The position numbers were made by a program, and so were the translations under genes. Positions 4,806-57,451 of a DNA stretch of 64,000 bases are shown here, piece by piece (the stretch's first letter is position 1; each line of letters opens with the position of its first letter). Source of the DNA: Antedon mediterranea (taxonomy: Eukaryota > Animalia > Echinodermata); assembly GCF_964355755.1 (NCBI RefSeq), contig NC_092672.1, positions 2,666,001-2,730,000 of the forward strand, written 5' to 3'. The notes beneath the pieces are model-generated. The model searched no databases, was not told the DNA's origin, and saw nothing but the letters and a program-made list of their open reading frames with translations.

Positions 4806-5243
4806 TTTAGTAATTGTCGGCGCAACGGTAAAATAAAACAACTACTAAATGTATACAGTAAACTATGCAATTTATTCCAAGTGAATCAAGTGAGGATTCT
4901 CAATAAATAGATAAAATATACAATATACAATGTTTGATAAGACAGAGCAATAAACGGTGTAGCTAAGATGCTGGTTGAGAAAAGAGTGTGTTAATAATGT
5001 GGTCAGTGCATGGTAATATTGGGCTTGGCCCATCTCATCTGACCAATTAGGATTAAGAGAATTAATGTGGTTTTCTGTTAGAGTCATTAACATTCTTAAA
5101 ATCCATTAGCTAGAAAAGTGAAGGTAACAGGAAGGTAACCTGTCAATGTGAGGTTAAATAAAGAGATATATAGAGGATGTATAAATAATCAAATTAAAAG
5201 TAAATGTTGAATTGTTTAAAAGCTATGTGGTAGGTCTGCTACA
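4806..5243 (-). repeat. 5' LTR
   Basis: Direct repeat of 230-667, followed by the PBS. Confidence 0.95.
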
Positions 5244-29833: not shown

Positions 29834-32366
29834 ATGGCTGCGCCTATAAAAAAAACGATAGAGTTGTTTTACGACGTTATATCACCATATTCTTGGCTTG
29901 CATTTGAAGTAATTATTAATAATACACTTCAAAATCTTAGTCTTGACTCTTAGCTACTCTAGCTACAAACTAAAACTAAAACTTAAAGGCAAGAAGTCTA
30001 CTCTAGCCTACTAGATAGCTAGCTAGGCCTAGCCTAGGCCTAGTCCTCCCAAACCATGCATATATGGAGAGTAAATGTCCTACTCCTGGAGGCCTAGCTA
30101 GGCCCTAGTATAGATTTTAGGCCAGACAGGAGGCCAGGCTAAAATAAAAGGCTATGCTGTATGCTCTTCTGTCTGCGTAGGAGCTAGGCTTACTGGCTAC
30201 TAGCTAGGCGGGCCAACAAACAGTGAACATTGTTTGACATGATTGTCTAGCATGATCATTTATTCATTGCATTGTTTTGTTTGTTTTTTTTTTGCATTGA
30301 AAGTTTTCTATTTTGGGACGGCCAACAATCAATCATTGACATTTACATTGAATAATTATTATTTATTGTTTTAGATATTAGGAAGGTACAGGCAAAGATG
30401 GAATATAGACTTGCAATACAAGCCGTTTTTTCTAGGAGGTATAATGCAGGGAGCAGGTGATATAACATTTGTTATTTCTATACTGTATCTAGGTCTGAAG
30501 CATACATGCCAACACTTCCATTTTTGGCCGGGAGACTTCCGTATTTTAGGCTCGTATCTCGGCCAAATATTGTGCTCAATAGCTGTGCTGTAAAAAAATG
30601 TCGTTTATCGTTCATTGACCTTCACACCAAGTGTACCTAAACTAGCACCTGATTAATAATAGAGTTTACGATTTTTTATTTATTTTTTTTTCTGTTTATA
30701 CGTTTATTAATATGGATGATATATCCGAAATAAAAAGAAATTGAAATTGAATAAGTATAAACTAAGATAGTTTGAGTAGCATTCTATAGGATTTTACTTG
30801 TAATATTTAGATGTGGTGAAACTTAACTTATTTTTACATTTTTCAGATAATAAGCCGCCAGGGTTGAATCCTATGAAAGCAGTGTACATGTTTGATGACT
30901 TAGCAATGCAACGTGATTACACTGGTGTTCCGTTTTCAAAATCCGTCCCAACGTCATTCTTTGAACAAAGTAAGTTTGAAGGTTTGCATGGCGAAGAAAA
31001 ACAAAGATTCAGGGACATCATGTTACCGTACCACAAAACTGACTTTTAAATGTGTTAAGAGGATTAGAGTTTCTCTAAATGTATTAAATTATACTTTGTT
31101 ACAGTTTTGATAAATGTCATTTTGTCATTCTAGGTTCTTTGACGGCACAGAGATTTTTGACCGTTGTAAATGACCAACATCCAGATGACCTTGAAGAAGT
31201 ATCAAGACAATTATGGATAAGAATGTGGTCAAAGGTCAACTAGTTCAAACATTTATTTTTTCTATAAAATATAATTATATTAACTTATAATGTATATATC
31301 TCAGACTAAATTTTCCCCATACTCAGGGAAAAATTTCATTTTAAAATTTTGTTTGCAAAATTGCTAATCAAACTGATTTTTTAGTCGAGAAACATAGTTA
31401 TGTATTGTATTTTTTGCTACACATTTTAGAAATGTGTAGCAAAAAAGTTGTTTTGTATAGCTTTTTGCTATGCTACACTGGCGAAATTATTCCCTGCATA
31501 CTAGTATGTTCCCAATTTTAAAACAATCGAACCGCAATGGAATATATAATTTTATGGACTTATTATTACATAAATATTATAATATTATATGTTACATATA
31601 TAACTTTTAAATATTTTTTTTTACAGGATAAAGACATTACAGATCCCACATCCGTTCTTGAGGTATGTGAATATTTAATTTTTTTTTATAAAACTTTTTT
31701 TGCAATCAAAATTACAAAAGGCTGGATTGATATTTTAGTTGATTGTGATGAAAATTTTAATTTAAATTTAATATTATATTATTACATGATAATTATTTAT
31801 TGTGATATCAAATCTACATCTTCAATTATTTTTAGGCAGCCCAGGCTGCTGGAATGTCTGAAGAGGTTGCTAATAAATGCATGTCAAAGGTCAAAGATCA
31901 GTCAACAAAAGAAGAGTTAAAAAGAATAACAGGCATTGCACTCGAAAGTGGTGTAAGTAATTTGAATTTAAAGTTTATTTTTTATTTTTAAAATTAATTC
32001 AATTTACAGTATATATTGGCGATCTGTTGTATACAATTACATATTCAAATAAAAAACGTGATTTTAATTTGTAAAGGCATTTGGCGCACCATGGATATTA
32101 GCTCACAGTGATGGAGAAGTAAAGACATTTTGGGGAACAGATAAAATACCTCTTTTAGCTCATGTAATAGGTAAAAACGCAAACAAATTATCAAATACTT
32201 GTAGTAGGCATACGTATTTTAGTATTTTAAAATCACTGTATTATTAGCAGTATTTTCATCATATCTTTGTCAATGTTTTCATTAGAAATTAATACTGTGA
32301 TAATATTATTTTATACTTACAGGTGAAAAATGGGAAGGTCCATTAAAACCATCATCAAAATTATAG
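29834..32366 (+). CDS. GSTK1: Kappa-class glutathione S-transferase, 8 exons, C-terminal PTS1 (SKL)
   Basis: Exons 29834-29908, 30375-30456, 30847-30969, 31134-31234, 31627-31662, 31836-31952, 32077-32170, 32323-32366; LFYDVISPYSWLAFE, PFFLGGIMQ, NKPPG, GAFGAP, GEKWEGP..SKL*. Confidence 0.94.
31324..31496. mobile_element. 173-bp MITE with 6-bp TSD in GSTK1 intron 4
   Basis: TIRs CAGGGAAAAATTTC / GAAATTATTCCCTG; TSD CATACT; absent at the paralogous site ~54385. Confidence 0.85.
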
Positions 32367-33206
32367 TCTGCTGCCCTCTACAAATTTCAGTTTGTCAAAC
32401 TTTTTAAACAAGATCAACATTACTGCTGTTTTAATCAAAAATTGTATCATGGTTTTAATTGTGATTGTAAATAATATTTGTGTTTATCTATTATATTCAT
32501 TGCAACCACTATTTTTAATTCATCATTACAAGAAACCAATTTAGGATGTAATATTGTGAAAAATTGATTATAACCAAACCTTTTAAAATTTATGAATACT
32601 GTATTAAATCAACGATATTTTATAAACAATATTTAATATAAACGGTGACTTTGTTTTAAAATAATGTGTAACATTAAAGTAAAGGAATTATCACCAGTTT
32701 ATTTGCATAGTGTATAGTTTTTATTGAAACAGCTAAAATATATATTAATCAAAGACTTAGACCTTTAAAAAAATGACAGAAATTAAATTTAGAGTAAGTT
32801 AGGTCCATCTCCTCAAACACCACCCCCTCCCCTGCCAAACCATTGTATTCTCTCTATTATAACACTACATCTGTATTTTAACTTTAAAGTGATCTGAGCA
32901 TCTTGGAAATAGTAAATCAAAAACACTCCTTGTATGTATTAGAATTATTAGGTTAGTTGTTTTTGTAAACTATAGTAATCAATAATATATGGACAGTTTG
33001 TCTGAAATAAAGTTGAATTGAATTGTTAGCATTTTGACTGAACTTATCCCTGTTACAAACTGAACATAAAGCATTCCTTTATTATGCAAAATATTAAACA
33101 ATAACATTTTTGTTTACTTCTGGTTTAATTGGTTAGGAGGAGGTGGATAGGTTTTTGAATTAAAGTTTTTAATAAATAGTTTGTTTTTTTATGGGTTTGC
33201 TACTAA

Positions 33207-33343
33207 AGCTCTGTCTTTACACTTTGTGACAAAAAAATGTGGTGTGTCCATATATGGACATTATGATATCGTATCTCTACCATTTGGGCATATTGCTACC
33301 ATATTTGGGCACATCACACTTTGTTGGTCATGTAGACAGAGCT
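33207..33343. mobile_element. Family B Harbinger-like MITE
   Basis: AGCTCTGTCT..AGACAGAGCT TIRs with TAA TSD; paralogous copy at 56770-56957. Confidence 0.8.
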
Positions 33344-33834
33344 TAAGTTTGTTTATATTTAGACTTAAAAAATGAAGTGATTTTGGGTGACAAAGGGTGG
33401 ACCTCGCGAAACTAGTGCTACTCCTCCCACTGGACCTGGCCCTGATCGCATGATCATGACATCATGGTCTCTGCAGGTTTATTTTTGACATGCTGTAGAC
33501 ATCACACAATACTAAAAAAAGATAACATTTAAAAAAAAACTTTATTAATAATTTTGTCCTCAAGAAAAAGTGATTTTACATGAGTCATTGGAACAACATT
33601 GATAATAATTAACATTAATTTTACTATCATTATCAACAATAATTACATAAAAATATTCTAAAAACTTAACAATAATATACAATACATAAGTATACACAGA
33701 TGGAATATAACCGTACAGAACATATTACTTTAAAATGACAATTGTTATTTATTATACTGCAAAGTAGATTATTAATATATTATTAAATGATTTAATATTT
33801 TCTTTCTTATAACACATTAATATATAATACTAGG

Positions 33835-36800
33835 CATTCATACACAACTATCACATAATGTAATATGGCAGTATGCTCACTGTATACACATTCATACACA
33901 ACTATCACATAATGTAATATGGCAGTATGCTCACTGCATACACATTCATACACAACTATCACATAATGTAATATGGCAGTATGCTCACTGTATACACATT
34001 CACACACAACTATCACATAATGTAATATGGCAGTATGCTCACTGTATACACATTCATACACAACTATCACATAATGTAATATGCCAGTATGCTCACTGCA
34101 TACACATTCATACACAACTATCACATAATGTAATATGGCAGTATGCTCACTGCATACACATTCATACACAACTATCACATAATGTAATATGGCAGTATGC
34201 TCACTGTATACACATTCATACACAACTATCACATAATGTAATATGGCAGTATGCTCACTGTATACACATTCACACACAACTATCACATAATGTAATATGG
34301 CAGTATGCTCACTGTATACACATTCATACACAACTATCACATAATGTAATATGGCAGTATGCTCACTGTATACACATTCATACACAACTATCACATAATG
34401 TAATATGGCAGTATGCTCACTGCATACACATTCATACACAACTATCACATAATGTAATATGGCAGTATGCTCACTGTATACACATTCACACACAACTATC
34501 ACATAATGTAATATGGCAGTATGCTCACTGTATACACATTCATACACAACTATCACATAATGTAATATGCCAGTATGCTCACTGTATACACATTCATACA
34601 CAACTATCACATAATGTAATATGGCAGTATGCTCACTGCATACACATTCATACACAACTATCACATAATGTAATATGGCAGTATGCTCACTGTATACACA
34701 TTCACACACAACTATCACATAATGTAATATGGCAGTATGCTCACTGCATACACATTCATACACAACTATCACAAAATGTAATATGGCAGTATGCTCACTG
34801 TATACACATTCACACACAACTATCACATAATGTAATATGGCAGTATGCTCACTGTATACACATTCACACACAACTATCACATAATGTAATATGGCAGTAT
34901 GCTCACTGCATACACATTCATACACAACTATCACATAATGTAATATGGCAGTATGCTCACTGTATACACATTCATACACAACTATCACATAATGTAATAT
35001 GGCAGTATGCTCACTGTATACACATTCACACACAACTATCACATAATGTAATATGGCAGTATGCTCACTGCATACACATTCATACATACACAACTATCAC
35101 ATAATGTAACATGGCAGTATGCTCACTGTATACACATTCATACACAACTATCACATAATGTAATATGGCAGTATGCTCACTGTATACACATTCACACACA
35201 ACTATCACATAATGTAATATGGCAGTATGCTCACTGCATACACATTCATACACAACTATCACATAATGTAATATGGCAGTATGCTCACTGTATACACATT
35301 CACACACAACTATCACATAATGTAATATGGCAGTATGCTCACTGCATACACATTCATACACAACTATCACATAATGTAATATGGCAGTATGCTCACTGTA
35401 TACACATTCACACACAACTATCACATAATGTAATATGGCAGTATGCTCACTGTATACACATTCATACACAACTATCACATAATGTAATATGTCAGTATGC
35501 TCACTGTATACACATTCACACACAACTATCACATAATGTAATATGGCAGTATGCTCACTGCATACACATTCATACACAACTATCACATAATGTAATATGG
35601 CAGTATGCTCACTGCATACACATTCATACACAACTATCACATAATGTAATATGGCAGTATGCTCACTGCATACACATTCATACACAACTATCACATAATG
35701 TAATATGGCAGTATGCTCACTGCATACACATCCATACACAACTATCACATAATGTAATATGGCAATATGCTCACTGTATACACATTCATACACAACTATC
35801 ACATAATGTAATATGACAGTATGCTCACTGTATACACATTCATACACAACTATCACATAATGTAATATGGCAGTATGCTCACTACATACACATTCATACA
35901 CAACTATCACATAATGTAATATGGCAGTATGCTCACTGCATACACATTCACACACAACTATCACATAATGTAATATGACAGTATGCTCACTGCATACACA
36001 TTCATACACAACTATCACATAATGTAATATGGCAGTATGCTCACTGTATACACATTCATACACAACTTTCACATAATGTAATATGACAGTATGCTCACTG
36101 CATACACATTCATACACAACTATCACATAATGTAATATGGCAGTATGCTCACTGTATACACATTCATACACAACTATCACATAATGTAATATGATAGTAT
36201 GCTCACTGCATACACATTCACACACAACTATCACATAATGTAATATGGCAGTATGCTCACTGTATACACATTCATACACAACTATCACATAATGTAATAT
36301 GGCAGTATGCTCACTGTATACACATTCACACACAACTTTCACATAATGTAATATGGCAGTATGCTCACTGTATACACATTCACACACAACTATCACATAA
36401 TGTAATATGGCAGTATGCTCACTGTATACACATTCACACACAACTATCACATAATGTAATATGGCAGTATGCTCACTGTATACACATTCACACACAACTA
36501 TCACATAATGTAATATGGCAGTATGCTCACTGTATACACATTCATACACAACTATCACATAATGTAATATGGCAGTATTCTCACTGCATACACATTCACC
36601 CACAACTATCACATAATGTAATATGGCAGTATGCTCACTGCATACACATTCATACACAACTATCACATAATGTAATATGGCAGTATGCTCATTGTATACA
36701 CATTCACACACAACTATCACATAATGTAATATGGCAGTATGCTCACTGTATACACATTCACACACAACTATCACATAATGTAATATGGCAGTATGCTTAC

Positions 36801-37896
36801 TGTATACACATTCACACACAACTATCACATATTGTAATATGGCAGTATGCTCACTGTATACACATTCACACACAACTATCACATAATGTAATATGGCAGT
36901 ATGCTCACTGTATACACATTCATACACAACTATCACATAATGTAATATGGCAGTATGCTCACTGCATACACATTCATACATAACTATCACATAATGTAAT
37001 ATGGCAGTATGCTCACTGCATACACATTCATACACAACTATCACATAATGTAATATGGCAGTATGCTCACTGCATACACATTCATACACAACTATCACAT
37101 AATGTAATATGGCAGTATGCTCACTGTATACACATTCATACACAACTATCACATAATGAAATATGGCAGTATGCTCACTGTATACACATTCACACACAAC
37201 TATCACATAATGTAATATGGCAGTATGCTCACTGCATACACATTCATACACAACTATCACATAATGTAATATGGCAGTATGCTCACTGTTTACACATTCA
37301 TACACAACTATCACATAATGTAATATGACAGTATGCCCTCTGCATACACACTCATACACAACTATCACATAATGTAATATGGCAGTATGCTCACTGTATA
37401 CACATTCATACACAACTATCACATACTGTAATATGGCAGTATGCTCACTGCATACACATTCATACACAACTATCACATAATGTAATATGGCAGTATACTC
37501 ACTGTATACACATTCATACACAACTATCACATAATGTAATATGGCAGTATGCTCACTGCATACACATTCATACACAACTATCACATAATGTAATATTGCA
37601 GTATGCTCACTGCATACACATTCATACACACCTATCACATAATGTAATATTGCAGTATGCTCACTGTGTACACATTCACACACAACTATCACATAATGTA
37701 ATATGGCAGTATGCTCACTGCATACACATTCATACACAACTATCACATAATGTAATATGGCAGTATGCTCACTGCATACACATTCTTACACAGCTATCAC
37801 ATAATGTAATATGACAGTATGCTCACTGTATACACATTCATACACAACTATCACATAATGTAATATGGCAGTATGCTCACTGCATACACATTCACA
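33835..37896. repeat. 54-bp satellite array A (~75 units)
   Basis: Unit CACAACTATCACATAATGTAATATGGCAGTATGCTCACTG(T/C)ATACACATTCA(T/C)A. Confidence 0.98.
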
Positions 37897-40800
37897 TTTA
37901 CTACAAATGAAATATATCAAGATATTATGAAATAGGCACTGGTTTAGGCCTACTTTTGGTTTTCTAAAGATACAAACAAGATCATATTTTGTGCAAATTA
38001 GTGTTTCATTGAAAAGTCAAGCATACAAGTCTAAATTGAACATATCATATCATTTAATCATATATTATTTATTTAATCATATATTTATATTTATTTAATC
38101 ATATATTAGAAGGAAATAATTGTTTATAATAAGATTCATGTTTTAATGTAAAATAATTTAAAGAAAGAGAGAGTGCAGAACACAATAATAAATATCATTT
38201 CTGTCTGTTCTTAGCTAGTGTCCCACCAAGTCTTTACAATATTGAAATACTTACATTACAATAATCCCTAGGCCTAGTCTACTTACAAACTTCAACTTTA
38301 GCAATCGAATGACTGAATGAATGAAAAGAACATACCTCAAATATGTGCAGACTAGACAAGCCGAGTTGAGGCAGTCAGTAGTAGGCTAGTAAGTAGGCCT
38401 AGCACAGACAAACAAGGTATAAGTTCTAGACCTGTTTAGGCTAGACCTAGGCGAGGCCTATGCCTACACAGTTTTCAGCTAGGCTAGGCCTAGCAATAGG
38501 CCTAGTCTAGAGCCTAGCCTAGCCTACTTTCTAGGCCGCCTAGCCTAGATAGACTCATCATTTTTTAGACATTGTTGCCTATGTTGTAGCCTACCTACTC
38601 TAGTAATAATAATAGTGCTTGATGGACAATTTATACAGATTTTTGTTCTTTGTGGCTGCAGACATTCAGTCAGATCGGGAGTCAGATAGAACCAAATATT
38701 AAATGAACGAATTTGAAAATGAAAATCTCCTCTACTATACTAGCTGCTGCTAGCTGCTGCAGCTGTTTTGATTACGCGTATGATGTAGACACGCGCGCGA
38801 CAAGGAAGATGAATATGGATGAATTTGATGATCGCGACCAAATATATAACTAAAACAAAATGTATTTCTTTAATAATAATAATGTAATATGGCAGTATTC
38901 TCACTGCATACACATTCACCCACAACTATCACATAATGTAATATGGCAGTATGCTCACTGCATACACATTCATACACAACTATCACATAATGTAATATGG
39001 CAGTATGCTCATTGTATACACATTCACACACAACTATCACATAATGTAATATGGCAGTATGCTCACTGTATACACATTCACACACAACTATCACATAATG
39101 TAATATGGCAGTATGCTTACTGTATACACATTCACACACAACTATCACATATTGTAATATGGCAGTATGCTCACTGTATACACATTCACACACAACTATC
39201 ACATAATGTAATATGGCAGTATGCTCACTGTATACACATTCATACACAACTATCACATAATGTAATATGGCAGTATGCTCACTGCATACACATTCATACA
39301 TAACTATCACATAATGTAATATGGCAGTATGCTCACTGCATACACATTCATACACAACTATCACATAATGTAATATGGCAGTATGCTCACTGCATACACA
39401 TTCATACACAACTATCACATAATGTAATATGGCAGTATGCTCACTGTATACACATTCATACACAACTATCACATAATGAAATATGGCAGTATGCTCACTG
39501 TATACACATTCACACACAACTATCACATAATGTAATATGGCAGTATGCTCACTGCATACACATTCATACACAACTATCACATAATGTAATATGGCAGTAT
39601 GCTCACTGTTTACACATTCATACACAACTATCACATAATGTAATATGACAGTATGCCCTCTGCATACACACTCATACACAACTATCACATAATGTAATAT
39701 GGCAGTATGCTCACTGTATACACATTCATACACAACTATCACATACTGTAATATGGCAGTATGCTCACTGCATACACATTCATACACAACTATCACATAA
39801 TGTAATATGGCAGTATACTCACTGTATACACATTCATACACAACTATCACATAATGTAATATGGCAGTATGCTCACTGCATACACATTCATACACAACTA
39901 TCACATAATGTAATATTGCAGTATGCTCACTGCATACACATTCATACACACCTATCACATAATGTAATATTGCAGTATGCTCACTGTGTACACATTCACA
40001 CACAACTATCACATAATGTAATATGGCAGTATGCTCACTGCATACACATTCATACACAACTATCACATAATGTAATATGGCAGTATGCTCACTGCATACA
40101 CATTCTTACACAGCTATCACATAATGTAATATGACAGTATGCTCACTGTATACACATTCATACACAACTATCACATAATGTAATATGGCAGTATGCTCAC
40201 TGCATACACATTCACATTTACTACAAATGAAATATATCAAGATATTATGAAATAGGCACTGGTTTAGGCCTACTTTTGGTTTTCTAAAGATACAAACAAG
40301 ATCATATTTTGTGCAAATTAGTGTTTCATTGAAAAGTCAAGCATACAAGTCTAAATTGAACATATCATATCATTTAATCATATATTATTTATTTAATCAT
40401 ATATTTATATTTATTTAATCATATATTAGAAGGAAATAATTGTTTATAATAAGATTCATGTTTTAATGTAAAATAATTTAAAGAAAGAGAGAGTGCAGAA
40501 CACAATAATAAATATCATTTCTGTCTGTTCTTAGCTAGTGTCCCACCAAGTCTTTACAATATTGAAATACTTACATTACAATAATCCCTAGGCCTAGTCT
40601 ACTTACAAACTTCAACTTTAGCAATCGAATGACTGAATGAATGAAAAGAACATACCTCAAATATGTGCAGACTAGACAAGCCGAGTTGAGGCAGTCAGTA
40701 GTAGGCTAGTAAGTAGGCCTAGCACAGACAAACAAGGTATAAGTTCTAGACCTGTTTAGGCTAGACCTAGGCGAGGCCTATGCCTACACAGTTTTCAGCT

Positions 40801-41193
40801 AGGCTAGGCCTAGCAATAGGCCTAGTCTAGAGCCTAGCCTAGCCTACTTTCTAGGCCGCCTAGCCTAGATAGACTCATCATTTTTTAGACATTGTTGCCT
40901 ATGTTGTAGCCTACCTACTCTAGTAATAATAATAGTGCTTGATGGACAATTTATACAGATTTTTGTTCTTTGTGGCTGCAGACATTCAGTCAGATCGGGA
41001 GTCAGATAGAACCAAATATTAAATGAACGAATTTGAAAATGAAAATCTCCTCTACTATACTAGCTGCTGCTAGCTGCTGCAGCTGTTTTGATTACGCGTA
41101 TGATGTAGACACGCGCGCGACAAGGAAGATGAATATGGATGAATTTGATGATCGCGACCAAATATATAACTAAAACAAAATGTATTTCTTTAA
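36559..41193. repeat. Apparently perfect tandem duplication, period 2320 bp (36559-38873 = 38879-41193)
   Basis: Same order of rare satellite variants and identical ~1-kb unique tail at offset 2320; TAATA filler at the junction. Confidence 0.93.
38879..40216. repeat. 54-bp satellite array B (~25 units, copy of the right part of array A)
   Basis: Same unit and variant order as 36559-37896. Confidence 0.97.
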
Positions 41194-41614
41194 AAACCAC
41201 AATTATAATAACAAATTATTACTAAACAGTTTTTATAACATATCAATTAATTACATGCTATTTTTAGATTTACAGATACAATTCTATTTTGTAATTACAA
41301 TATTGACACTTGTGTACTGCGACTTTTACAAATGCGCTCTTTATATGAATTGAGACGTAGTACACATTACATACTGTAGTTATTGGCGGATGATGATCGT
41401 GAATTTAATAATCGAAAGATATCTTTCTCTTCCAACACTCTTCAGTCAAGTAATTAATTACTTCACCTGATATATTGCAATCCCACATTTCAAGCACCTC
41501 CAGCTTAGGACACATAATGAGTAATGAAGACATTGAATTAACATCAATGTTGTGAAAGTTATTACGAGCGATATAGAGATGACGTAATGCTAATTGAACT
41601 TGTTTGAGAGAACA

Positions 41615-44600
41615 TTATGTACACAAGTGATTGATGACGTCACCTGATAGATTGCAAAAACTCATGTGAAGCCACTTCAGCTTAGGACACATAATGAGAA
41701 ATGAAGACAATGAATTAACATCAATGTTGTGAAAGTTATTACCAGAGATATCGAGATAACGTATTGCTAATTGAACTTGTTTGAGAGAACATTCTGTACC
41801 CAAGTGATTGATGACATCACCTGATAGATGGCAATGACTCATTTCAAGGTACGTCTGCTTAGGACACATAATGAGAAATGAAGACATTGAATTAACATCA
41901 ATGTTGGGAAGGTTATTACCAGAGATATTCAGATAAACTAATGCTAATTGAACTTGTTTCAGAGAACATTCTGATACAAAGTCATGAAATACATCACGTG
42001 ATAGATACTGATCAATAACAACACTTTTACATTTAGCTTCAATTCCTAGAATATGTGCAATAACTTTTCCCTTGCGTTTCAATGCCATCTTACTACAAAA
42101 TGTATTCAAACTTTTATTCCCATTTGCATATTTCAACGGTTCTTTGTCATATGCCATGCAATAAAGTTGCATAATTAGAGGTATGAAATGCTTATTACAT
42201 TGCACACCTGGACTAATGTGGTCAATAAACATTGTTATGGAGGTAGATATATTGTCCAAATGTGTCTTTATTTCTAAATCTTGAATTTGATCATTTAATT
42301 CATTTACCACAGCATCTTTATGTTGTTCTTTAACAAACATTAAATTACTCGGCAGAGAACGATATGTCGACAAACTATTTGTAACCCAGTGCTTTAAAAA
42401 TGCATTAGCGTTAGCACCAAGGAAACCAATTGCAAACTTTCTCCCCATCTTTAAATGCTCACTTTCTCTTATTACTTTCCATTCATTATCATCCAATGGT
42501 GTAAGTATTCGTCTTACATCTTCTGTTGTGCATTCATTCTCGATACCATCACTTTCACATAATTTGCACAAATAGAATCCTACCAATGACTCTACTATCA
42601 ACTTGTGAGGAGGCATGAAAATCCTTTCAAAGCTAGATTTTGAAATTGGTGCTTCTTCGTAAACAAACCCAAGATTTACGGCCATGTCAATCATATCTCT
42701 TGTGGAATGTGCATCATTCAAATCTGTCATGTTTATTGAAAGTTGATTCTTTTTTAAGCTTTTATACATACACTTCCCTAATAAAATCATAGCATTTACA
42801 TAATTCGCTGGGATGTCTTCAAATTCAGAAATGTTGGCGAATTGTTTTTGTTTGTTAAACTGATTTAAAATACTACGGAAAAGTTGTTTGAAAAGATCAG
42901 CACTGTCACTAGGAAGACTTTGATTGTTTTCCCATAACATACACATTGAAAGAAGTAACATAGGGTTTTTGCACATTGAATATGCTTCTGGATGTTTTCG
43001 ATAATAATACCTAGTGTCAATACCTAATTCCCTTTTAAGCGACTCTCCCAATTGCGGTTGTCCAAAATAATTAAAATATTTCTCAATATACTCATATATG
43101 CTCTCTTGATTAAATCCCTTAACTCTCACATGAACGTTACACTCTTTTTTAAATTCATCTATGTTTTCTTGTCGTGAAGTAAGTATCACAGTACTTTCTT
43201 TAAGGTTGGTTTTATTGAAAAGACTTAATACACTTTGATTATTAAATCTCAACTCATCTAATCCGTCTAGTAGCAACACAACTTTATCGTCATGTTTCTT
43301 TATGAATTTCTGAATTAACCGTGGATCTTTTGGGAGATCTGTGTCTAAATTGAAATCTTTCATATCCAGTTGCTTTACAATTAGATCAAATATATTGTCA
43401 TCTTTTTGCAAATCTCTAACACATAAGAAAAATACAATTTTACCTTCAAAGACATTATTAGATTGACTAGGTGTAGCCCATGTGTATGATAAATGTCTTA
43501 ATATGGTAGTTTTACCAATACCTCCCTCTCCTTCAATAAGAGCTCTACATCCAGGTGTGGAGCTGATTACATCTACCACCTCTTCTAATGTTGTTGGTTT
43601 GCTTCCTTTATTGTTTTCACGTTCTTTGAGTAGTTCCATATCGGTAAACATCTGTGAAACGTCAACTTTGTATCGATCATTCATTGTTGCAGGTGTAAAT
43701 CTACTGGCCTGTCTGCACTTGTTCTTTTGAATTTTAATCAGATATGTTTGCATCTTTTCTAAAAACAAAGTAAATTATTCAATAGAAAGAATCTTATACT
43801 TAATTATATTTTATTAAGCATTTTATATATTAGTATTATTATTGTTGATATTAATTCATCTTAATTATTTATTTAAATATAGGCCTATAATTTATTTTAG
43901 TAGGCCTAAATAATATTGGTTTGGTTGTTCTTTTTACAGGCCTAGATAATGTCATCCTAGCTATAAATAAAATTGAAAGTTGTTATTATAGCAATTTGAA
44001 ATTATTTTACCTAAAGTTATTGAAGATTGTTATCAGTCATACCAAACTCTCAATATCGTATTTTTTTTGTGTAAATCAATAGGGTTTTAGAGGGCGACAA
44101 ATACATATTTTTTTCTATCAGGCCGGTAGACCAGCATATTTCAGATTAAAATCAAACTAACTCCGTCAGAAAACGATATAAGTATGTAAGTTTTATTTTT
44201 GTAAATTTCTTAATTTTGCTGTCATAAAAAATTGTTCATATCCGATTATACGATTGTTGGAATGAGGTGTATACAAGATTAACTGTTCTAATCCTGATTT
44301 TAATTACATTTTTCATGTTTTTTGTTCTTTTATAATTATAAGCCTTGTTTAGGACAAAATTCACAACAAGAAATATTCTACTGCATAAAAAGCGTCTTTT
44401 TATACGATACTAATAATAACTAACCTGTTTCTGACTCAACCTTATTTTGCGTTCCTTGTTCTTCGTTACTAGTAGTCGACACTTCTACTGTTTAATAAAT
44501 AAATAAGTGTATTAATCATTATTATCAAACCGACCTTATTACTTTACAATTATTCTACCGCATAATAAACTTCTTTATAGAAGAAAACTTATACAGTTTA

Positions 44601-47540
44601 AAGTTATTAACAAACATGCTTCTGGTTTAAACTCTTTTTGCGTTCCTTGTTCTGTTTTACTAGTGTTCGGCACATTTACTGTTTAATGATAAATAAGAAT
44701 AGATAAATAGTTTAATTAATTCAAAATAATTATAAATTTAATAATATAGAAATACAATTATAATAAAAAGAAATACAGTTTTCATTTCAGAAATATTTCC
44801 ATTTAAGTAGTCAAGTTATATTGCAATTAAGGTCTTTTTTCACAAAAAAAATCCTTTTTAGTAACGCAATTGTATATAGAGGGCGACAAACACAATTTTA
44901 AATCAATCAGAAGAAGAAAACTTCAATTTCTGTACTGACATGATCGGAAATGACGTCAAACTCTTTTTTTTATAAACCTAAAGAGACTATAACAAAATAA
45001 ATCAAGACTAAATATGCATTAAAATCCGAGATTAGAGATACATTTTACAGAGAGCATAAATTCAGATACTTTCCTCCCATTGAATTGTAATATTTGTTAA
45101 TCTGCACTCACCAGTGTCTGATTTAACTTCTTGTTGCGTTCCTTTGTTGAACCTACCACTGGTCGGTGGCACTTCCTCTGTGTAATAAAAAGAACGGGAG
45201 AAATATGAATTTACAATAATTTTAGGGATTCATTAAAGCATAAATATCTAACTAAGAAATAACAAAAACCTAAACCAATCGAGTTAAATTCAAATAATGG
45301 CCAAAATAGATAGCCACATATTAGACAAATCAATGTGATGTGATTATTCTAATTGATCTTTTCTTTTATATTGTTGTTTTCCCCGTAAATTTTGATTTTG
45401 GAGTCAAAGTTTTCTAGCTTTATAATCTTTTATTTCTACAAATATGTTGAATTAGATTAGGAATGATGAATGTAATGTATTTGTGGTTGATTTGGCTTCA
45501 ATAATAATCATCTCTATATTATATTGTTCAAATAATTGAAAACATGCCTCTGGAAAGTTATTGGTTCCATGGAACCTCCATCTTTTATCGGTTTTCTCAA
45601 TCTTCATATTAATTTATTTACAATTAAGTAAGTATAAAAAATGATGATAACGTTGTATCTTAATGAGTAATTATTAAGCTATTGTCGTCTAATAAAGGTG
45701 TTAATAACACTACCAAATATTGACTGGGAAACAATCACAATTATACAATATGTCGTTGGTTACTTGTTTGGTTTACACTAACGTAACGCAATAATGTAGA
45801 CGCAACGCAAGCGAATAGACCAATGATAAGCGACAGTTCGAATAATGCATCGCTTGTGATTGGTCAATTCACGACGTTGCTTAATATTTAATGTATATCT
45901 CTAGGACTCGTAACAGTACGGTAACTAATCTGTTTCTGATTTAACTTCTTTTCGTGTTCCTTCATTACTACTGGTCGTCGGCACTTCCACTTTATAAATA
46001 TATAATTAACAGAAAACAATCTAAATTAATATTAGGAGCGCAATTCAGCATAGAATTAATTTATATATAAATACTATTTCCATTATAATTATACACATTA
46101 CTAACAAAATGAAATCATTTTGTTAGTGTACGTCTATACATAATTGGTAACTATAAACCTGTTTCTGACTTCATATCTGTTCTCATTCTCTTGTTACTAC
46201 TATGCACTTTCTCTTATAAATAAAAACAAATCTAATGGCTTTTACCTAGTGAATGAAATGATTATTTCTAGATATTGTTTATTTTCAAAATAATACGTTT
46301 GTAATGTTATTCAAATTGAATTGTATTATGTTATGGTTAATGTATATACTGTAAATACAATACCTGATTCTGACTCAGATCCGTTCGTCTGCCTCTTCTT
46401 CCTTCCTGTCATTTTGGATCCGCCGCTGTTATCCTCTGCTTGTATTCCTTGTTCGTTGTTAGGCCTAAAACTGGTGGTTGGCAATTCTTCTGTTTAAAAT
46501 AACAAACTGAATTTACAATATGGTATCCATCTTGTGAACAACCAATGATTAGAGTATCAATCCAGCTAATATACAACATTACGTATTAATTAGGTTTTTA
46601 GAGAGGGCGACAAATAAAATATGCTCAACAGAAGGCAGTAAAATAAAAAAAAATCACAAATCTGTAATAGATGTTTAGTCAGCGATCTTTCAGATTAAAT
46701 ACAAAACCGTATATCAAATTTATTCGACTAAACGCCTCCCTTTGAATACACGCCTCTCTCAAATAAACGCCCCATTAAAACATCATTTTGTATGTAGGCC
46801 TACAAAGTAGAATTTATTGACTTTCATGATCTCTACAATTTAGCAAACATATTAATTATATTGATACAATTGTTAATTTTGTTACAATAACGGATTTTGT
46901 TTGATAATTCGTTCCTGTTACATACCTTGTGTCAGGCATTTCATCGTTGATGCCAGTCCAATTTTGTTAAGAATGTTAATAAACTCTTCTTTTCTTTCTT
47001 CACAAACTATTTGTCTTTGTTCCAAGTCTATAATCATACTCCAAGAGTCTTCATAATTCTTTAAAGGATTGTTGAAGAGTGCATCAATTTTCTTAACAGC
47101 AGCCTTTCTTAGTTCGTTTCCAAAATCTGCAATCCAGTGTCGATATGGGGTGAAATTTATAATTTGTATTTCTTGAACTTCAAAGATAGATTGTTGGAAA
47201 ACTTTGATAGCTCCAAACGTTTGTGTTACTTTTATCGTTTCATAAAGTAACTCCAGATTGCCTGGGCTTAAACGTCCTGTTTTCCTCAATGCATGCAGTA
47301 GATCTATCGTTGTGTTGGCTTTGTCTATGTCTGCTACTGAAATTAAATCGTGGTATAAAACCTTCAGCTGTCTGACCAGGTTGTTTTTATCATACCATTC
47401 TGAAAAGTTCACCAAGTCCACATTAAAATCTATTTCTAAAAAAATAAAAAGTGGGAAAAAGAAAAGATTAGAAAAAACATTTTAAAATTGTTTTCGATGC
47501 AATATAAAAACACCATTTTTTGTTTATTACCTGTTCCCAT
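41615..47540 (-). CDS. NLR-1: tandem DED - micro-exon linker - NACHT - LRR innate immune receptor (premature stop at 41615; ancestral stop 41405)
   Basis: Exons 47540-47531 (MGT), 47435-46926 (two DED-like folds), 46489-46364, 46212-46159, 45177-45112, 44678-44616, 44487-44425, 43758-41615; all phase 1; Walker A GEGGIGKTT, Walker B LLLDGLDEL, sensor-1 ILTSR, RI-like LRRs. Confidence 0.87.
45930..45989 (-). pseudogene. Degenerate NLR-1 linker micro-exon (donor GT>AT)
   Basis: 60-nt open paralog of the neighbouring micro-exons (EVPTTSSNEGTRKEVKSET); ends CAG|ATTAGT vs CAG|GTTAGT at 44425. Confidence 0.7.
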
Positions 47541-50083
47541 TTTGTCAATTCAGTTTTCTATCTTTATTTCTGAAAAACAGAATTGCTGTATTTAAGATAA
47601 ATGCTGTGCATCCGTTTTTCAAATTGAAGACCTTCTTTAAACAAGAAATATTTCTTACAAAAAACGCTGCTCGCTTATTGACTTATTCACTTTAGTTCAT
47701 TTTATTGCTAAGGTCAAGTCGGGGGTCACTTCATCACGCCTAGATACATGGACTGTTTTGATAATAATTCAATGATTTATCTGACACCAAATTACAGTAT
47801 TATATAACATCATGGGACTCATAAATACGAGAAATGCTTTGGGATTTGTCATTCAACCGTTAGACTCTTTTCCCAGACGTTTTTGGGTCTAGCAGGTGGG
47901 ACCTATAAATTATGGTGGAGTTTACATTTTCGCAAAAATGTCAGTCCCTCAGTACTAAATCTGCTGCTGCTTTATATCGGATTACGTCATCTCTTGTGAC
48001 GTATCGGGCTAAAGCAGCAGCGTGAAAAATGTTTAAAATTAAACAATAGGACTAATGTAAATAAATAATTTTGTTTGACAGATCCAGTAAAGAATTTACT
48101 CACATTCTTTAGCTTTCGCCATCTTGGCTGATGGCTTGATCACAAGTGATCCGGTCCACTGCTACTTCTGGAAATCTGATGTTATTGTTTCTATATTACG
48201 TCATACTTTTTCGTAGCAATGATGTGTATACGTGATATGATATATTGCTGAACGTTTCCTCTTGTTTATTTCTTGAGATCCCATTAATAGGAGTGTCCCC
48301 TGAATATAGGTGCCTAAAGGAGGTGAATACTTTTAACTACTGTAAATACAGTACGTCTATTAAGAGGACACCCACTTCATTAGATCTAGTTAATAATAAT
48401 AATTCAAACCTAAAATTATTTCAAAAGATCACAGAGGAGAAAAGACCACGGTCACCTGGATTACCACGTGACACGATGTTGGAATCGTAAAAGGACAGTT
48501 TATCACAATTAAAATGTTTGTTCTGTTCTCGTGTTGTTTGTGCCGAAATTAGCAAAACAATTATATCTTTCTTTCTTTCTTTCTTCTATCTTTCTTTCTG
48601 AAAAAAAATGATGTAAATTCAACATAGCTGATAAAATATGGCGATTAGCACATTTAACATTGGTGGTATGGACAAAGGATATTCATGTGCATGGCCTGAT
48701 GTCTCAATAAAGTACATACAATTTTAACTCTTTTCCCCAATTTATTCACCTTCACCCATGCTATAAATCACGTAGTGATGGCCCTCATTTCTACCGGCTC
48801 AAATCTGTTCTCCTTCACCTCTCAACTGGCCCTGTCCTTGTCCTGCGGCGTGATTTGACTGTTTTTCTTACATGATGATTTGATGTTTTGATGATCATGA
48901 CTGGACGATATAAAGGTATTATTAGGTAGGGCATTATATTAAAGGATATGATTACATGATTCTGTTCTGATAACTCCGTCTCTTCTCGTATAATTGCTTA
49001 GGCCTATATATTGTACAATGTATACAAGTTTCTAAACGGAAGTGCGTTCGAATCCATGTTCTTACAAAAAAAAATATATATATATATATATATCTATATC
49101 AAAAGGACATTTAGACACATTAATTTACTGAAAATGACTATATATATGTAAGGATGTGGACGACAACACAAAAGGAAAAACACGCCTTTTCTCACTTTTA
49201 CCACGGTCCTGTGGTGTATTTGGTTTTAATTTGTTTTTAGCATAACAATAGAGATCAGTATGGTCCTGAAAACCACAAAATAAATACAATGAGAAACAAA
49301 AGTAAATAATATTCTAAAATACAAGCCAATTCTTAGTAACGACCTCAACTTAACAGGCGACTCTAATAAAAAGGATTCTCTCTGAGGACTGCGACTATTA
49401 CATCAAACGGCACGTCTACCTAAACAGCCTCTGTATACTTTGTTAGAGTATACAAATACCTAATTAATTACCTACACAATTGCATCATAAGTGCCTGAAT
49501 ATTACTATTATATTACTAGAATAAATGCATGTTGGAATTTACTCACACTATTTGAATACTAAACTTAGTCTATTCATTGAATCAAGGAGTTATAATCTTA
49601 GGTTTGTGTAAAATATATAAACAATAACAAATCCATGGGCGCAGCCATTTTGTATGATAAATAGAGGGCGCACTACATGACGATCTATCACGAGCATGGT
49701 AGCCTCGTGTGTACAAATTAATCAAGTGTGAACTGTAGGATGAACTATTTTATACAAACTGTTAACTAGAAACTATCTTCTATAAACTAAACATTACTAA
49801 ATCTATCTAAACATATTTTGTTAATACAAAGAAGGTTTATCACAAAAGTATATATTATAACATTATATGGCATAAAATCCTAGTTCAAAGATTGTAACAC
49901 AATACTATTCAATAGGCTTCCTAACTGCACATTCCATGAGTCAAGGTTAACCCAAAACAAATGTCTAGGCCTATGAATGCAATCATCTTAAAATACAACA
50001 TTACTGTTTCTTAAACATAACAGAATCTTATAAATGTATAACAAAGTAATATATGTATAAAGTAGAGTAATTACCTTTTAATC

Positions 50084-53748: not shown

Positions 53749-54185
53749 AGTACTAGTCGTACAGAATGTGGGCCAAGGGGGAATAACGGTTGTACACCTT
53801 AGCAAAAGGAACAACTAAGGATATTAATCTGTACACTCAGAAACCACCCAAGTACGTGAGGACATATCGACACTAAGCACTGTATAATAATGTACTATAA
53901 GAGTGCTGCGTGCTATTTAATCATTTTGTTAGGCTTTGTGAACATGTATAATTGTGTTAGATCATTTTAGATTTGTAATATTACCGCTTAAATTATTTAC
54001 TAGAAAATGTATATTGTATATTCATTATGTTACTATAATTATGGTCGTCGTCGAGGAAGAGGAGCCATACTGCAAAACTGACTTTAATTGTTAATCCCAC
54101 ATGCTATGGGAGAATTAGAATTTCTATTAATTTATTAAATCATACTTGTCACAATTTTGATGAAAAATGTCATTTTGTCATTCAG

Positions 54186-56083
54186 GTTCTTTGACGGCAC
54201 AGAGATTTTTGACCGTTGTAAATGACCAACATCCAGATGACCTTGAAGAAGTATCAAGACAATTATGGATAAGAATGTGGTCAAAGGTCAAGTAGTTTAA
54301 AACATTTATTTTTTCTATTATAATATAATTATATTAACTTACTTAAAATGTATATATCTAATTCTAAACTAACTAAATTTTCACCATATTAGTATGTTCC
54401 CAATTTTCAAACAATCAAACCCCAATGGAATATATAATTATCTTATTATTACATATACAAATATTATAATATTTTTTATATAACACCTAAATAAATTTCT
54501 GTCATTTGATTGGACGATTGTGGGTCACATGGCGTGCAATAGTACGCACTATTAAACGATCGTTTAATAGTACTTTTTGAAACATTTTTGTGTACGAAAA
54601 AAAAAACGTCTCGCAGATGAAAAAAAATCTAGTACACAAATTATCCTATGATATATGGCTCTGTACTGTGAAATACAACAGCGCCACCTGTCGTCTGGTC
54701 TCAGTTTCATTTGTAAACACCAACGCGAGATATGCAACAGCAGCAGATATTTGTGTACGATTTGGACATTATGTACTAATTTCATTCAAAGAGGCATTTA
54801 AATTAGCTTTAGATCGTTTTTAGGATTTTGATTAATTAATGGGGACATCCCTACAAGACGTGGAATTGTTGGAAAAACCATAATTAGCTTAGATAAGTTC
54901 CAATTGTCTGTCGAAGTTTTGCCTTTCAGCCAAGCTAGTACTAGGCTACTAGGTCTAGCCTACTAGGCCATGCTAGTATTAGGCTAGGCCTAGCCTAGGC
55001 GTGTTAGCCTTGCTAGGCCTAGGATTGTTTGGTCGTTTGTTGACATAATTAACACAAAAGTAGGTGTGTTTACGAAATCCAAATAAATATAACATTTAAT
55101 ATAAAATTATTAAAAACCAAATGTTATTGTTTTTAATCAATGTGTGTGAATGAAATGTAGTAAGCTTTGGCTAGGGCTACCTTTTATTTGATTCAAATAA
55201 CTAATTTATTTAGATGTTATATAAAACAAATAATGAATGTTTTGTATTCGTGTAATGGTACAAAGAATGGCACTTGGTGAATGATGAAAGGTTATATCAA
55301 CTCGGCGTTGCCTCGTTGATATAACCTTTCATCATTCACCTCGTGCCATTATTTGTACCATTACACTCATAAACATTCATTATTTGTATAATATTACATA
55401 TTTACAGGATGAAGATATTTCAGATCCCACATCCGTTCTTGAGGTATGTGAATATTGAACTTTCTTTTCATAAAACTTTTTTCAATCAAATTTACAAAAG
55501 ACTGAATTAATATTTTTGTTGAGTTGGATGAACATTTTAAATTTATTATTATATTACACCATATTTATTGTCATATCAAATCTACATCTTGAAATATTTT
55601 TAGGCAGCCCAGGCTGCTGGAATGTGAAAGGTCAAAGATCAATCAACAAAAGAACAGTTAAAAAGAATAACAGGCATTGCACTCAAGTAAGTAATTTTAT
55701 TTTTAAAATTAATTCAATTTACAGTATATATTGGCGAGTCTGTTGTATACAATTACATATTCAAATAAAAAATGTGATTTTAATTTGTAGGCATTTGGCG
55801 CACCATGGATATTAGCTTACAGTGATGGAGAAGTAAAGACATTTTGGGGTACAAATAAAATACCTCTTTTAGCTCATGTAATAGGTAAAAACGCATGCAA
55901 ATTATCAAATACTTGTAGTAGTAGGCATACGTATTTTAGTATTTTAAAATCACTGTATTATTATCAGTATTGTCATCATATCTTTGTCAATGTTTTCATT
56001 AGAAATTAATACTGTGATAATATTATTTTATACTTACAGGTGAAAAATGGGAAGGTCCATTAAAACCATCATCAAAATTATAG
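54186..56083 (+). pseudogene. 5'-truncated GSTK1 pseudogene (exons 4-8)
   Basis: Exon copies at 54186-54286, 55408-55443, 55604-~55686, 55791-55884, 56040-56083; no exons 1-3 seen; deletion creates ATG TGA stop in exon 6. Confidence 0.92.
54474..55395. mobile_element. Non-autonomous element with asymmetric inverted repeat and long terminal hairpin (Crypton- or Helentron-like)
   Basis: Absent from the paralogous intron (~31580); 54474-54495 inverted to 55205-55226; hairpin 55226-55387; TATAATATT direct repeat at both ends. Confidence 0.75.
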
Positions 56084-56769
56084 TCTGCTGCCCTCTACAT
56101 ATTTCAGCTTGTCAAATTTTTTATTTTAATCAAAAATTGTATCATGGTTTATATTTTGATTGCAGTTAATATTTGTTTTTATCTACCAATATTATCTTCA
56201 TGGAGGCTACTATCTTGAATTCATTACTACAAGACACCAGTTTAGGAAGTAATATTGTGAAACATTAATTATAACCTTTGAATACTGTATTAATATCAAT
56301 CATAGATGTTATAAACAAAATATATTTTTAAATGATGACTTTGTTGTAAAATATGGTGTAACAATAAAGTAAAAGAATTATCACGAGTTTATTTGCATAT
56401 AGTTGTTATTGGAATAGCTAAAATAAAAAAATGACAGAAATTAAATTTCGAGTAAGTTAGGTCCATCCCCCCAAACACCCTCCCTCGCCAAACCATTGTA
56501 TTCTCTCTATTATAACACTAAATCTGTGTTTTAACTTTAAAGTGATCTGAGCATCTCGGAAGTAGTAAATCAAAAACACTCCTTGTATTAGAATTATTAG
56601 GTTGTCATTTTGACTGAACTTATTACTGTTACAAACTGAACATAAAGCATTCCTTTATTATGCAAAATATTTAAAAAACAACATTTTTGTTTACTTCTGG
56701 TTTAATTGATTTCGAATTGATAGATTTTGAATGAAAGTTTTATAGTTTGTTTTTATGGGTTGCTACTAA

Positions 56770-56957
56770 AGCTCTGTCCACACTGAAGAGCAAGTGTGAT
56801 CAATTGTAAAGCTCTGTATTCACACTTTATGTGACAAAAAAATGTGATATGCCCATATACAGTATGGACATTTAATGATGTCATATCACTACCATATTTG
56901 GGCATATCGCTACCATATTTGGGCACATCACACTTTTTTGATAGTGTAGACAGAGCT
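56770..56957. mobile_element. Family B MITE (paralog of 33207-33343)
   Basis: Same TIRs, TAA TSD and flanks. Confidence 0.8.
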
Positions 56958-57451
56958 TAAGTTTGTTATATTTAGATTAAAAAAATGAAATGTGATTTTA
57001 GGTGACAAAGCGTGGACCTCGCTACCCCTACCACTGGACCTTCCCCTGATCACATGATTATGACATCATGGTCTCTGCAGGTTTATATTTGACATACTGT
57101 AGACATCAAATAATACTAAGAAAAGATAACATTTAATAAAACTTTATTAAAATAATAATTTTGACCTCAAGAAAAAGTTATTTTCTCGAGTCATTGGAAC
57201 AACATTCATAATAATTAACATTACTATCATAATCAACAATAATTACATATAAATATTCTAAAACTTAACAATAATATACAATACATAAGTATACACAGAT
57301 GGAAAATAAACGTACAGAACATATTATTACTTTAAAATGACAATTGTTATTTATTAATAATTATACTGCAAAGTAGATTATTAATATTATTATATTATTA
57401 AATGATTTAATATTTTATTTCTTATAACACATTAATATATAATACTATAGG

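What the first reader, a model, noticed from the sequence alone, without database searches (positions are those of the whole stretch)
44425..46489. DED-NLR with an array of duplicated symmetric micro-exons forming a tunable linker
Seen: six paralogous exons (126, 54, 60, 66, 63, 63 nt) lie between the tandem-DED exon and the NACHT-LRR exon. All are multiples of 3 and phase 1-1, and encode variants of EVPTTS..EQGTQ.EVKSET. One has lost its donor. The intronic motif AGAGGGCGACAAA recurs (~44089, ~44878, ~46603), showing exon+intron module duplication. Established: symmetric exons can be skipped without frameshift, and NLRP1/CARD8 use disordered linkers as protease tripwires (picornaviral 3C cuts Q/G). 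Inference: combinatorial splicing varies DED-NACHT spacing or a bait region. Three exons carry EQG and one has an NLS-like GRKKR.
Basis: partly seen in the sequence, partly recalled or inferred. Interest (0 to 1): 0.78.

Follow-up and report, generated by a model that had tools for sequence, protein, structure and literature searches.

The report
Feather-star NLR with duplicated linker exons
A feather-star immune-sensor gene carries six short duplicated exons in the linker between its death-signalling and ATP-switch domains, two of them with damaged splice sites; sister genes carry zero to six such units, so this is likely an evolutionary gain-and-loss spacer rather than a regulated splicing dial or a virus-protease trap.

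Summary
The six exons are real at the stated coordinates, between a caspase-8-like tandem-DED exon and a NACHT-LRR exon of an Antedon mediterranea NLR. The array is partly decayed. Exon 3 has lost its GT, exon 5 has a weakened donor and makes a stop if joined straight to NACHT, and the RefSeq model uses exons 1, 4 and 6 only. Paralogue models carry 0-6 units. DED and NACHT trees conflict, so N-terminal modules are swapped across this interval. Contigs of one probable RNA run splice units at these edges, but they come from paralogues. Whole-unit skipping is annotated in 2 of 8 multi-unit Antedon genes and in one Anneissia gene. Skipping therefore exists in the family but is not shown for this gene. 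The protease-bait idea fails: 0 of 37 units fit a 3C-type motif, no FIIND was found, and pN/pS is about 0.67. A lead: 10 of 22 other crinoid-type linkers carry an NLS-like motif (post hoc). The scan had not noted this array before.

The parts
48104..48122 (-). 3' part of a likely 5' exon with a short upstream ORF (MAKAKE, then a stop made at the junction with either downstream acceptor)
   Evidence: sequence, GTGAGT donor; use as an exon is inferred
47531..47569 (-). likely first coding mini-exon (ATG at 47540, M-G-T, phase 1), counterpart of M-A-T in paralogues
   Evidence: one search gives MGTEIDF..., paralogue P0043 starts MATEIDF; the RefSeq model of this locus omits it and starts at an internal Met
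46926..47435 (-). tandem death effector domain exon (510 nt, phase 1-1)
   Evidence: Pfam DED E 7e-8, just under the curated cut-off; model pLDDT 90; caspase-8/cFLIP tandem DED matches
46602..46614 (+). intronic 13-mer AGAGGGCGACAAA, copy in the DED-e1 intron
46364..46489 (-). linker exon e1 (126 nt; one unit plus a basic GRKKR segment); used in the RefSeq model
46159..46212 (-). linker exon e2 (54 nt; degenerate unit); not in the RefSeq model
45930..45989 (-). linker pseudo-exon e3 (60 nt; donor GT changed to AT, stop at the next codon)
45112..45177 (-). linker exon e4 (66 nt); used in the RefSeq model
   Evidence: paralogue contigs splice at 45112
44878..44890 (+). intronic 13-mer, copy in the e4-e5 intron
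44616..44678 (-). linker exon e5 (63 nt; donor CAT|GT; makes a stop if joined directly to the NACHT exon); not in the RefSeq model
   Evidence: paralogue contigs splice at 44678
44425..44487 (-). linker exon e6 (63 nt); used in the RefSeq model
44089..44101 (+). intronic 13-mer, copy in the e6-NACHT intron
41615..43758 (-). single exon for NACHT, helical domains and two 59-residue LRR units, ending at TAA 41617-41615
   Evidence: Pfam NACHT E 3e-24 and LRR; 100% identical over 713 aa to XP_071944164.1
41405..41614 (-). third LRR unit and former C-terminus, still in frame behind the premature stop
   Evidence: (177-nt repeat); laid contigs read C at 41617 on the + strand

Best explanation
The six segments are duplicated linker exons of a feather-star tandem-DED NLR, one dead and one impaired, and they likely form a gain-and-loss spacer whose length differs mainly between paralogous genes rather than between transcripts of this gene. 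Shown: DED pair, low-complexity linker and NACHT-LRR; 0-6 units among paralogue models; splice-site damage in e3 and e5; conflict between the DED and NACHT trees. Inferred: a unit of about 20 codons with flanking intron was duplicated inside the phase-1 interval, where only symmetric exons survive. Unequal crossing-over and gene conversion in the tandem cluster would then add and remove units and swap N-terminal modules across this hinge, and surplus units are lost by splice-site mutation. Inferred function: on activation the NACHT ring would cluster the DED pairs to nucleate a caspase-8-type DED assembly, with the linker as a length-tolerant tether. Skipping of whole units occurs in some relatives, likely as tolerated variation.
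For: Linkers of Antedon paralogue models run from 11 to 134 aa. A unit profile hits 22 of 210 proteins held, all named Antedon mediterranea, with 1-6 units each, and misses paralogues such as P0061 and P0048 (the profile was built from these same units). Three paralogues with DEDs 95-98% identical to this gene carry 1, 2 and 3 units. Only e1+e4+e6, 1 of 64 subsets, reproduces the RefSeq protein. DED identity and NACHT identity are uncorrelated over 66 pairs of 12 genes (rho 0.03). P0008 has a DED pair 17-19% identical to most others but a NACHT 84% identical to P0017 and the same units. The NACHT clade P0008/P0017/P0045 is rejected on the DED alignment (p-AU 3e-49; I named the group after seeing both trees). 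One unit travelled with the DED exon onto a fibrinogen-domain gene (P0053/P0062). The window holds a second NLR copy about 21 kb away in a segmental duplication. Anneissia NLRs have different repeats in the same place. N-terminal domain shuffling is a described property of invertebrate NLRs (PMC3879445, passages).
Against: Whole-unit skipping is annotated in 2 of 8 multi-unit Antedon genes and in an Anneissia gene with a different repeat, so transcript-level variation may matter more than I allow. Pooled pN/pS of 0.67 and well-kept columns (V, S, Q-G, K-S-E-T in 24-29 of 37 units) hint at constraint on the unit sequence, which a pure spacer does not need. K[KR]x[KR] motifs are enriched in linkers of the wider family. 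Paralogue unit counts come from annotated proteins, not from their DNA, so they mix copy number with exon choice, and several models may be ab initio (P0046 starts in intron-like sequence). Intron homology, expected under module duplication, is faint.
Confidence: 0.62

Rival explanations
1. Regulated exon skipping tunes DED-NACHT spacing and so the speed or form of signalling-complex assembly, as with ASC versus ASCb.
For: RefSeq isoform pairs differ by exactly 3 units (67 aa, P0008/P0007), 1 unit (21 aa, P0045/P0012) and, in Anneissia, 1 unit of another repeat (29 aa, P0066/P0067). Units are spliced at these edges in run X1. Linker length changes ASC assembly (PMC8891976, abstract), and deleting the NLRP3 linker exon abolishes the cage (PMC13226650, passages).
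Against: No isoform is annotated for this gene or for 5 other multi-unit genes. e3 is dead and 16 of 64 subsets are nonsense. Each joint fits a constitutive paralogue (DED-to-e5 fits P0016; e4-to-e5 fits P0043). Short reads on near-identical units can create false skips, and the P0045 locus has two different DED versions (14 mismatches), which suggests reads chained across paralogues.
Confidence: 0.16
2. The linker exons are short-motif cassettes, chiefly importin-alpha nuclear localisation signals, so that gaining, losing or skipping them moves a DED-NLR between nucleus and cytosol. In this gene e1 would be the signal.
For: K[KR]x[KR] stands in 10 of 22 DED-NACHT linkers outside this cluster (shuffle mean 1.9; 0 of 2000 shuffles reach 10; same-length windows from the rest of the proteins give 0.65), often repeated as STSKRPKL. 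e1 fits a monopartite pattern. Some Antedon units read RKRFK where most read RKEVK. NLRC5 uses an N-terminal bipartite NLS and importin-alpha (PMC11044055, passages).
Against: The patterns are recalled and were chosen after I saw the sequences. The 22 linkers are related (at least four share one repeat), and linkers under 12 aa were dropped. In this cluster only 1 of 11 linkers has K[KR]x[KR] (shuffle mean 1.6) and 4 of 11 fit the looser patterns (26 of 2000 shuffles). e2-e6 have none. The units skipped in P0007 and P0012 carry no such motif.
Confidence: 0.1
3. This copy is a decaying gene, and its six-exon array is debris with no present role (compatible with the best explanation).
For: Premature TAA in the LRR region, dead e3 and weakened e5. 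The RefSeq model lacks the start exon and most of the DED pair.
Against: The DED exon and 713 codons of NACHT-LRR are open and the Walker A motif is intact. The stop is in the last exon and leaves two LRR units, and paralogue models with one unit exist (P0007). Donors of e4 and e6 match the consensus at 8 of 9 positions.
Confidence: 0.25
4. The linker is bait for viral 3C-like proteases (an NLRP1/CARD8-type tripwire).
For: QG occurs in 23 of 37 units and the linker is predicted disordered. Cleavage preferences of marine picorna-like viruses are unknown to me.
Against: 0 of 37 units fit a 3C-type pattern with a small or hydrophobic P4. No FIIND or C-terminal CARD hit, so a cut would separate the DEDs from the NACHT ring. 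pN/pS does not exceed 1. QG is shared by descent and is rare in the Anneissia repeats.
Confidence: 0.04

Closest known systems
Expanded invertebrate death-fold NLR families (sponge, sea urchin, amphioxus; PMC3879445, passages read)
   Same: Death-fold + NACHT + LRR, lineage-specific expansion, NACHT and LRR on one exon as in sponge clade C, N-terminal domain not predicted by the NACHT tree.
   Different: Here the effector is a caspase-8-like tandem DED and the linker is an array of duplicated exons; the passages I saw describe no such array.
ASC/ASCb linker isoforms (PMC8891976, abstract and outline)
   Same: A splice difference confined to the linker next to a death-fold domain of an immune signalling protein.
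   Different: One linker segment in an adaptor, with measured effects; here 0-6 paralogous units in a sensor, with no measured effect.
NLRP3 exon 3 linker (PMC13226650, passages) and NLRP3 LRR exon skipping (PMC6642158, abstract and outline)
   Same: A short exon with basic residues encodes the effector-NACHT linker and is present or absent across relatives; modular in-frame exons of an NLR can be skipped.
   Different: NLRP3 has one linker exon whose natural skipping was not observed in human cells; the skipped modules there are LRR exons, whereas here all LRRs lie in one exon.
Schistosome micro-exon genes (bioRxiv 10.1101/2023.06.21.545858, passages)
   Same: Runs of short exons that give protein variants by alternative splicing.
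   Different: MEGs are secreted proteins made of 10-20 exons, mostly 15 nt; here six exons of 54-126 nt sit inside a cytosolic-type multidomain NLR, and splicing variants of this gene are not shown.
NLRP1 / CARD8 protease tripwires (PMC7857732, passages)
   Same: Disordered N-terminal linker containing QG.
   Different: No FIIND or C-terminal CARD, no P4 match, no sign of positive selection.

Membership tests
Animal NLR (death fold-NACHT-LRR) | NACHT NTPase domain | tested here: met
   Pfam NACHT E 3.4e-24, 86 bits against a cut-off of 26.7
Animal NLR (death fold-NACHT-LRR) | C-terminal LRRs | tested here: met
   LRR_1 E 4e-7; two 59-residue units before a premature stop
Animal NLR (death fold-NACHT-LRR) | N-terminal death-fold effector | tested here: met
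   tandem DED by Pfam, model and Foldseek
Animal NLR (death fold-NACHT-LRR) | this copy is expressed as a full-length message | tested here: inconclusive
   no RNA holder listed; spliced contigs in X1 belong to relatives; the RefSeq model is 5'-short
NLRP1/CARD8 tripwire sensors | FIIND autoproteolysis domain with C-terminal CARD | tested here: not met
   no such hit among 19 Pfam hits at E up to 1 for the two ORFs
NLRP1/CARD8 tripwire sensors | linker mimics a 3C site, [A/hydrophobic]xxQG | tested here: not met
   0 of 37 units match [AVTSLIP]xxQ[GSA]; published motif
NLRP1/CARD8 tripwire sensors | positive selection on the linker | tested here: inconclusive
   pN/pS 0.67 (0.42-1.21) over e3-e6, about 20 codons each, low power
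Micro-exon genes (schistosome MEG type) | 10-20 very short exons making up most of a secreted protein | tested here: not met
   six exons of 54-126 nt; 86 of about 970 residues in the annotated form
Alternatively spliced linker cassette (ASC/ASCb type) | one gene gives isoforms that differ only in linker exons | tested here: inconclusive
   annotated for 2 of 8 multi-unit Antedon genes and one Anneissia gene, not for this gene; reads not seen
Alternatively spliced linker cassette (ASC/ASCb type) | linker length changes assembly or signalling | not testable with these tools
   needs reconstitution
NLS-bearing nuclear NLR (NLRC5 type) | basic importin-alpha motif N-terminal to NACHT | tested here: inconclusive
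   e1 fits a recalled monopartite pattern; 10 of 22 wider-family linkers but 1 of 11 in this cluster have K[KR]x[KR]

The most novel reading that the evidence does not exclude
Crinoid DED-NLRs keep their regulatory tags on interchangeable linker exons. Two crinoid genera have built repeat arrays there, many units carry importin-alpha-type signals, and including or skipping units sets nuclear versus cytosolic location and DED reach. In this gene the e5-to-NACHT junction would also yield a DED-only, cFLIP-short-like decoy. One NLR locus would thus give sensor, relocated sensor and inhibitor by linker splicing.
Probability: 0.12. Interest if true: 0.7.

Novelty: new variant of a known kind. Interest (0 to 1): 0.36.

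Why it matters
It shows one way in which an invertebrate NLR cluster diversifies outside the sensing LRRs: the interval between effector and NACHT acts as a recombination hinge and gathers duplicated spacer exons. The family offers a natural series (near-identical DED pairs with 1, 2 or 3 units) for testing how linker length affects DED-assembly nucleation. As it stands the processes are known ones (exon duplication, pseudo-exon decay, domain shuffling), so surprise is moderate. It would be high only if regulated skipping or a nuclear switch were shown.

Tried and rejected
No whole genome is held, so paralogue exon-intron structures could not be read; no RNA holder listed; not evidence either way. 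(X1-X4, 85%): none of the 15 joints shown lies at these exon edges, and 53 were not shown; X2-X4 are one sample and have contigs running through introns; 1 of 654 X1 contigs is at least 99% alike; this lack of cover says nothing about expression of this gene. SPOP-degron and USP7-docking readings of the V-x-T-[ST]-S start of each unit (patterns recalled): 16 and 23 of 37 units match, but the units share an ancestor, so the shuffle test is void, and the SPOP pattern is not enriched in the wider family (2 of 22, shuffle mean 1.2); set aside. A TRAF2 pattern was not enriched (11 of 37, shuffle maximum 17). The 13-mer as a marker of every module: rejected (3 of 7 introns). Literature searches that found no description of crinoid NLRs or of this array, judged from listings: (0 papers); for the DED-fibrinogen fusion; listings only led to the papers cited. 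The library lacks most subscription journals, and no supplements were read. Scan look-ups near this place, by sequence and by words returned nothing. No complex prediction was run.
Full report
What is there. The minus strand holds a gene with a 510-nt exon at 47435-46926, six short segments between 46489 and 44425, and one long exon from 43758. The long exon encodes NACHT (E 3e-24) and LRRs and is identical over 713 residues to RefSeq XP_071944164.1 of the feather star Antedon mediterranea. The 510-nt exon gives a weak Pfam DED hit (E 7e-8, below the curated cut-off) and a confident model (pLDDT 90); all 7 of its PDB matches at E up to 0.001 are caspase-8/cFLIP DED structures. In the closest full-length paralogue the linker, residues 173-249, has pLDDT under 50.

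The observation. Lengths, phases, the lost donor of e3, the three EQG and the GRKKR are as described. e3-e6 are clearly paralogous (6 of 6 pairs beat all 300 shuffles); e1 and e2 are only weakly so. The 13-mer occurs three times and nowhere else in the window, which is more than chance (7 of 1000 shuffles). It lies in only 3 of 7 introns, and only 1 of 21 intron pairs beats all shuffles, so module duplication is plausible but faintly recorded. The array is damaged. e3 read-through meets a stop at once. e5 ends in T where contigs of relatives read G, which weakens its donor and makes TAA when it joins the NACHT exon: 16 of 64 exon subsets are nonsense. Only e1+e4+e6 reproduces the RefSeq protein. 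A TAA at 41617-41615 removes the third LRR unit. The RefSeq model lacks the likely start exon and may have little transcript support (inference).

Are the units exons? No RNA holder was listed. Run X1, guessed to be RNA, gave 14 joints. Three have CT..AC ends exactly at my exon edges (44678-46926, 44678-45112, 45989-46159), and two more skip exactly the lengths of introns 3 and 5 (752 and 128). One insert, read by eye, is the second unit of paralogue P0045 joined to the end of another unit. These contigs are nearly all under 99% alike to the window, so they show that the units are spliced exons in the family, not how this gene is spliced. The DED-to-e5 and e4-to-e5 joints match the annotated forms of paralogues P0016 and P0043.

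Variation in the family. Antedon linkers span 11-134 residues. A unit profile hits 22 of 210 proteins held, all Antedon, with 1-6 units (circular for counting). Three genes whose DEDs are 95-98% identical to this one have 1, 2 and 3 units. Of 8 isoform pairs compared, 3 differ by whole linker units: P0008/P0007 (67 aa), P0045/P0012 (21 aa) and Anneissia P0066/P0067 (29 aa, a different repeat). The other 5 differ elsewhere or by one residue. Among Antedon genes with two or more units, 2 of 8 have such isoforms (P0008 and P0045; not P0001, P0004, P0010, P0016, P0043, P0055). That RefSeq variants rest on transcript alignments is my own knowledge; I saw no reads, and the P0045 locus has two DED versions, a sign of possible chaining across paralogues.

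The hinge. DED and NACHT identities are uncorrelated across 12 genes (rho 0.03). P0008 joins a very different DED pair to the same units and to a NACHT 84% identical to P0017. The DED alignment rejects the NACHT clade (p-AU 3e-49; group named after seeing the trees). The same DED exon is fused, with or without one unit, to a transmembrane fibrinogen-domain protein. Among 50 library relatives scanned it also occurs with Roc-COR, caspase, TIR, Rel homology, RIG-I helicase, ubiquitin, ENTH and ankyrin domains (most of these proteins are unnamed, 93 further hits were not scanned). N-terminal shuffling is described for invertebrate NLRs (PMC3879445, passages) and RLRs (PMC8998645, passages).

Mechanism. 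Shown: domains, exon structure, damage, paralogue variation, tree conflict. Inferred: duplication inside a phase-1 intron keeps only symmetric exons; unequal exchange in the tandem cluster (a second copy starts near 62500) changes unit number and swaps effector modules; extra units decay. The protein would work as an NLR whose NACHT ring clusters tandem DEDs for a caspase-8-type assembly, with the linker as tether (0.62). Regulated skipping that tunes spacing has real analogues in ASC/ASCb (abstract) and the NLRP3 linker exon (passages) but no support for this gene (0.16). A localisation role is suggested by K[KR]x[KR] in 10 of 22 linkers outside this cluster (shuffle mean 1.9) and by NLRC5 (passages); the test was post hoc, the sequences are related, and only 1 of 11 linkers in this cluster has the motif (0.10). 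The protease bait fails on motif (0 of 37 units), architecture and selection (pN/pS 0.67, 0.42-1.21) (0.04). That this copy is decaying is possible alongside the best reading (0.25).

Against my reading: annotated skipping in three genes of two genera, conserved unit columns, pN/pS below 1, and unit counts taken from protein models rather than DNA.

Novelty. The gene is a member of the known invertebrate death-fold NLR expansions. The searches listed no paper on crinoid NLRs or on a duplicated linker-exon array in an NLR; the library is incomplete and no supplements were read. I rate it a new variant of a known kind, interest 0.36.

Noticed in passing
proteins P0050, P0051, P0053, P0059, P0062 (XP_071961949, XP_071947541, XP_071954586, XP_071943477): The same tandem-DED exon is fused to a hydrophobic helix and a C-terminal fibrinogen domain in Antedon models on three different contigs, with a nearly identical helix-fibrinogen part. 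The layout is that of a type II lectin receptor with cytosolic DEDs. One search listed no paper on it.
   Followed up: partly
proteins P0102, P0115, P0081, P0087, P0113, P0071: Relatives of this DED pair occur with a Rel homology domain, a RIG-I helicase, a caspase, a TIR domain, ubiquitin and Roc-COR. Only P0071 was named (Antedon).
   Followed up: partly
proteins P0043 / P0009 (XP_071945142, XP_071945145): Isoforms of the closest paralogue differ by a 55-residue in-frame deletion (336-390) inside the NACHT exon that removes the GKT of Walker A; an exitron or an annotation artefact.
   Followed up: partly
protein P0055 (XP_071964219): A divergent DED pair followed by six linker units and no NACHT; a possible decoy or an incomplete model.
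   Followed up: no
proteins P0033, P0134: An OTU-like insert (precomputed Pfam PF02338 for P0033) sits inside the DED-NACHT linker next to the basic repeats, so the linker also takes up integrated domains.
   Followed up: no
proteins P0036, P0122: A hydrophobic, membrane-helix-like stretch lies between DED and NACHT; compare earlier finding e1-10603836.
   Followed up: no
window 48104-48122 (-): A six-codon upstream ORF whose stop is made only on splicing to either downstream acceptor; a possible translational brake.
   Followed up: partly
window 31059-42693 and 54110-63996: Segmental duplication of about 21-24 kb spacing (80-92% identity) with a second NLR whose LRR end lies at about 62500-64000; its 5' part is outside the window.
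   Followed up: partly
window 36559-38876 and 38879-41196: A 2.3-kb tandem duplicate at 99.96% identity; very recent, or an assembly artefact.
   Followed up: no
window 228-5243: LTR retrotransposon of Ty3/Gypsy type (by ORF motifs, my reading) with 440-nt LTRs 99.8% identical and gag, protease and pol ORFs on the minus strand.
   Followed up: no
window 8432-14070; 33800-40250; 57450-61550: A GC-rich 86-nt satellite (about 99% identical units) and long 54-nt satellite arrays that give long repetitive ORFs.
   Followed up: no
window 45768-45872 and about 47680-47950: High-copy dispersed repeats inside the e3-e4 intron and the first intron.
   Followed up: no
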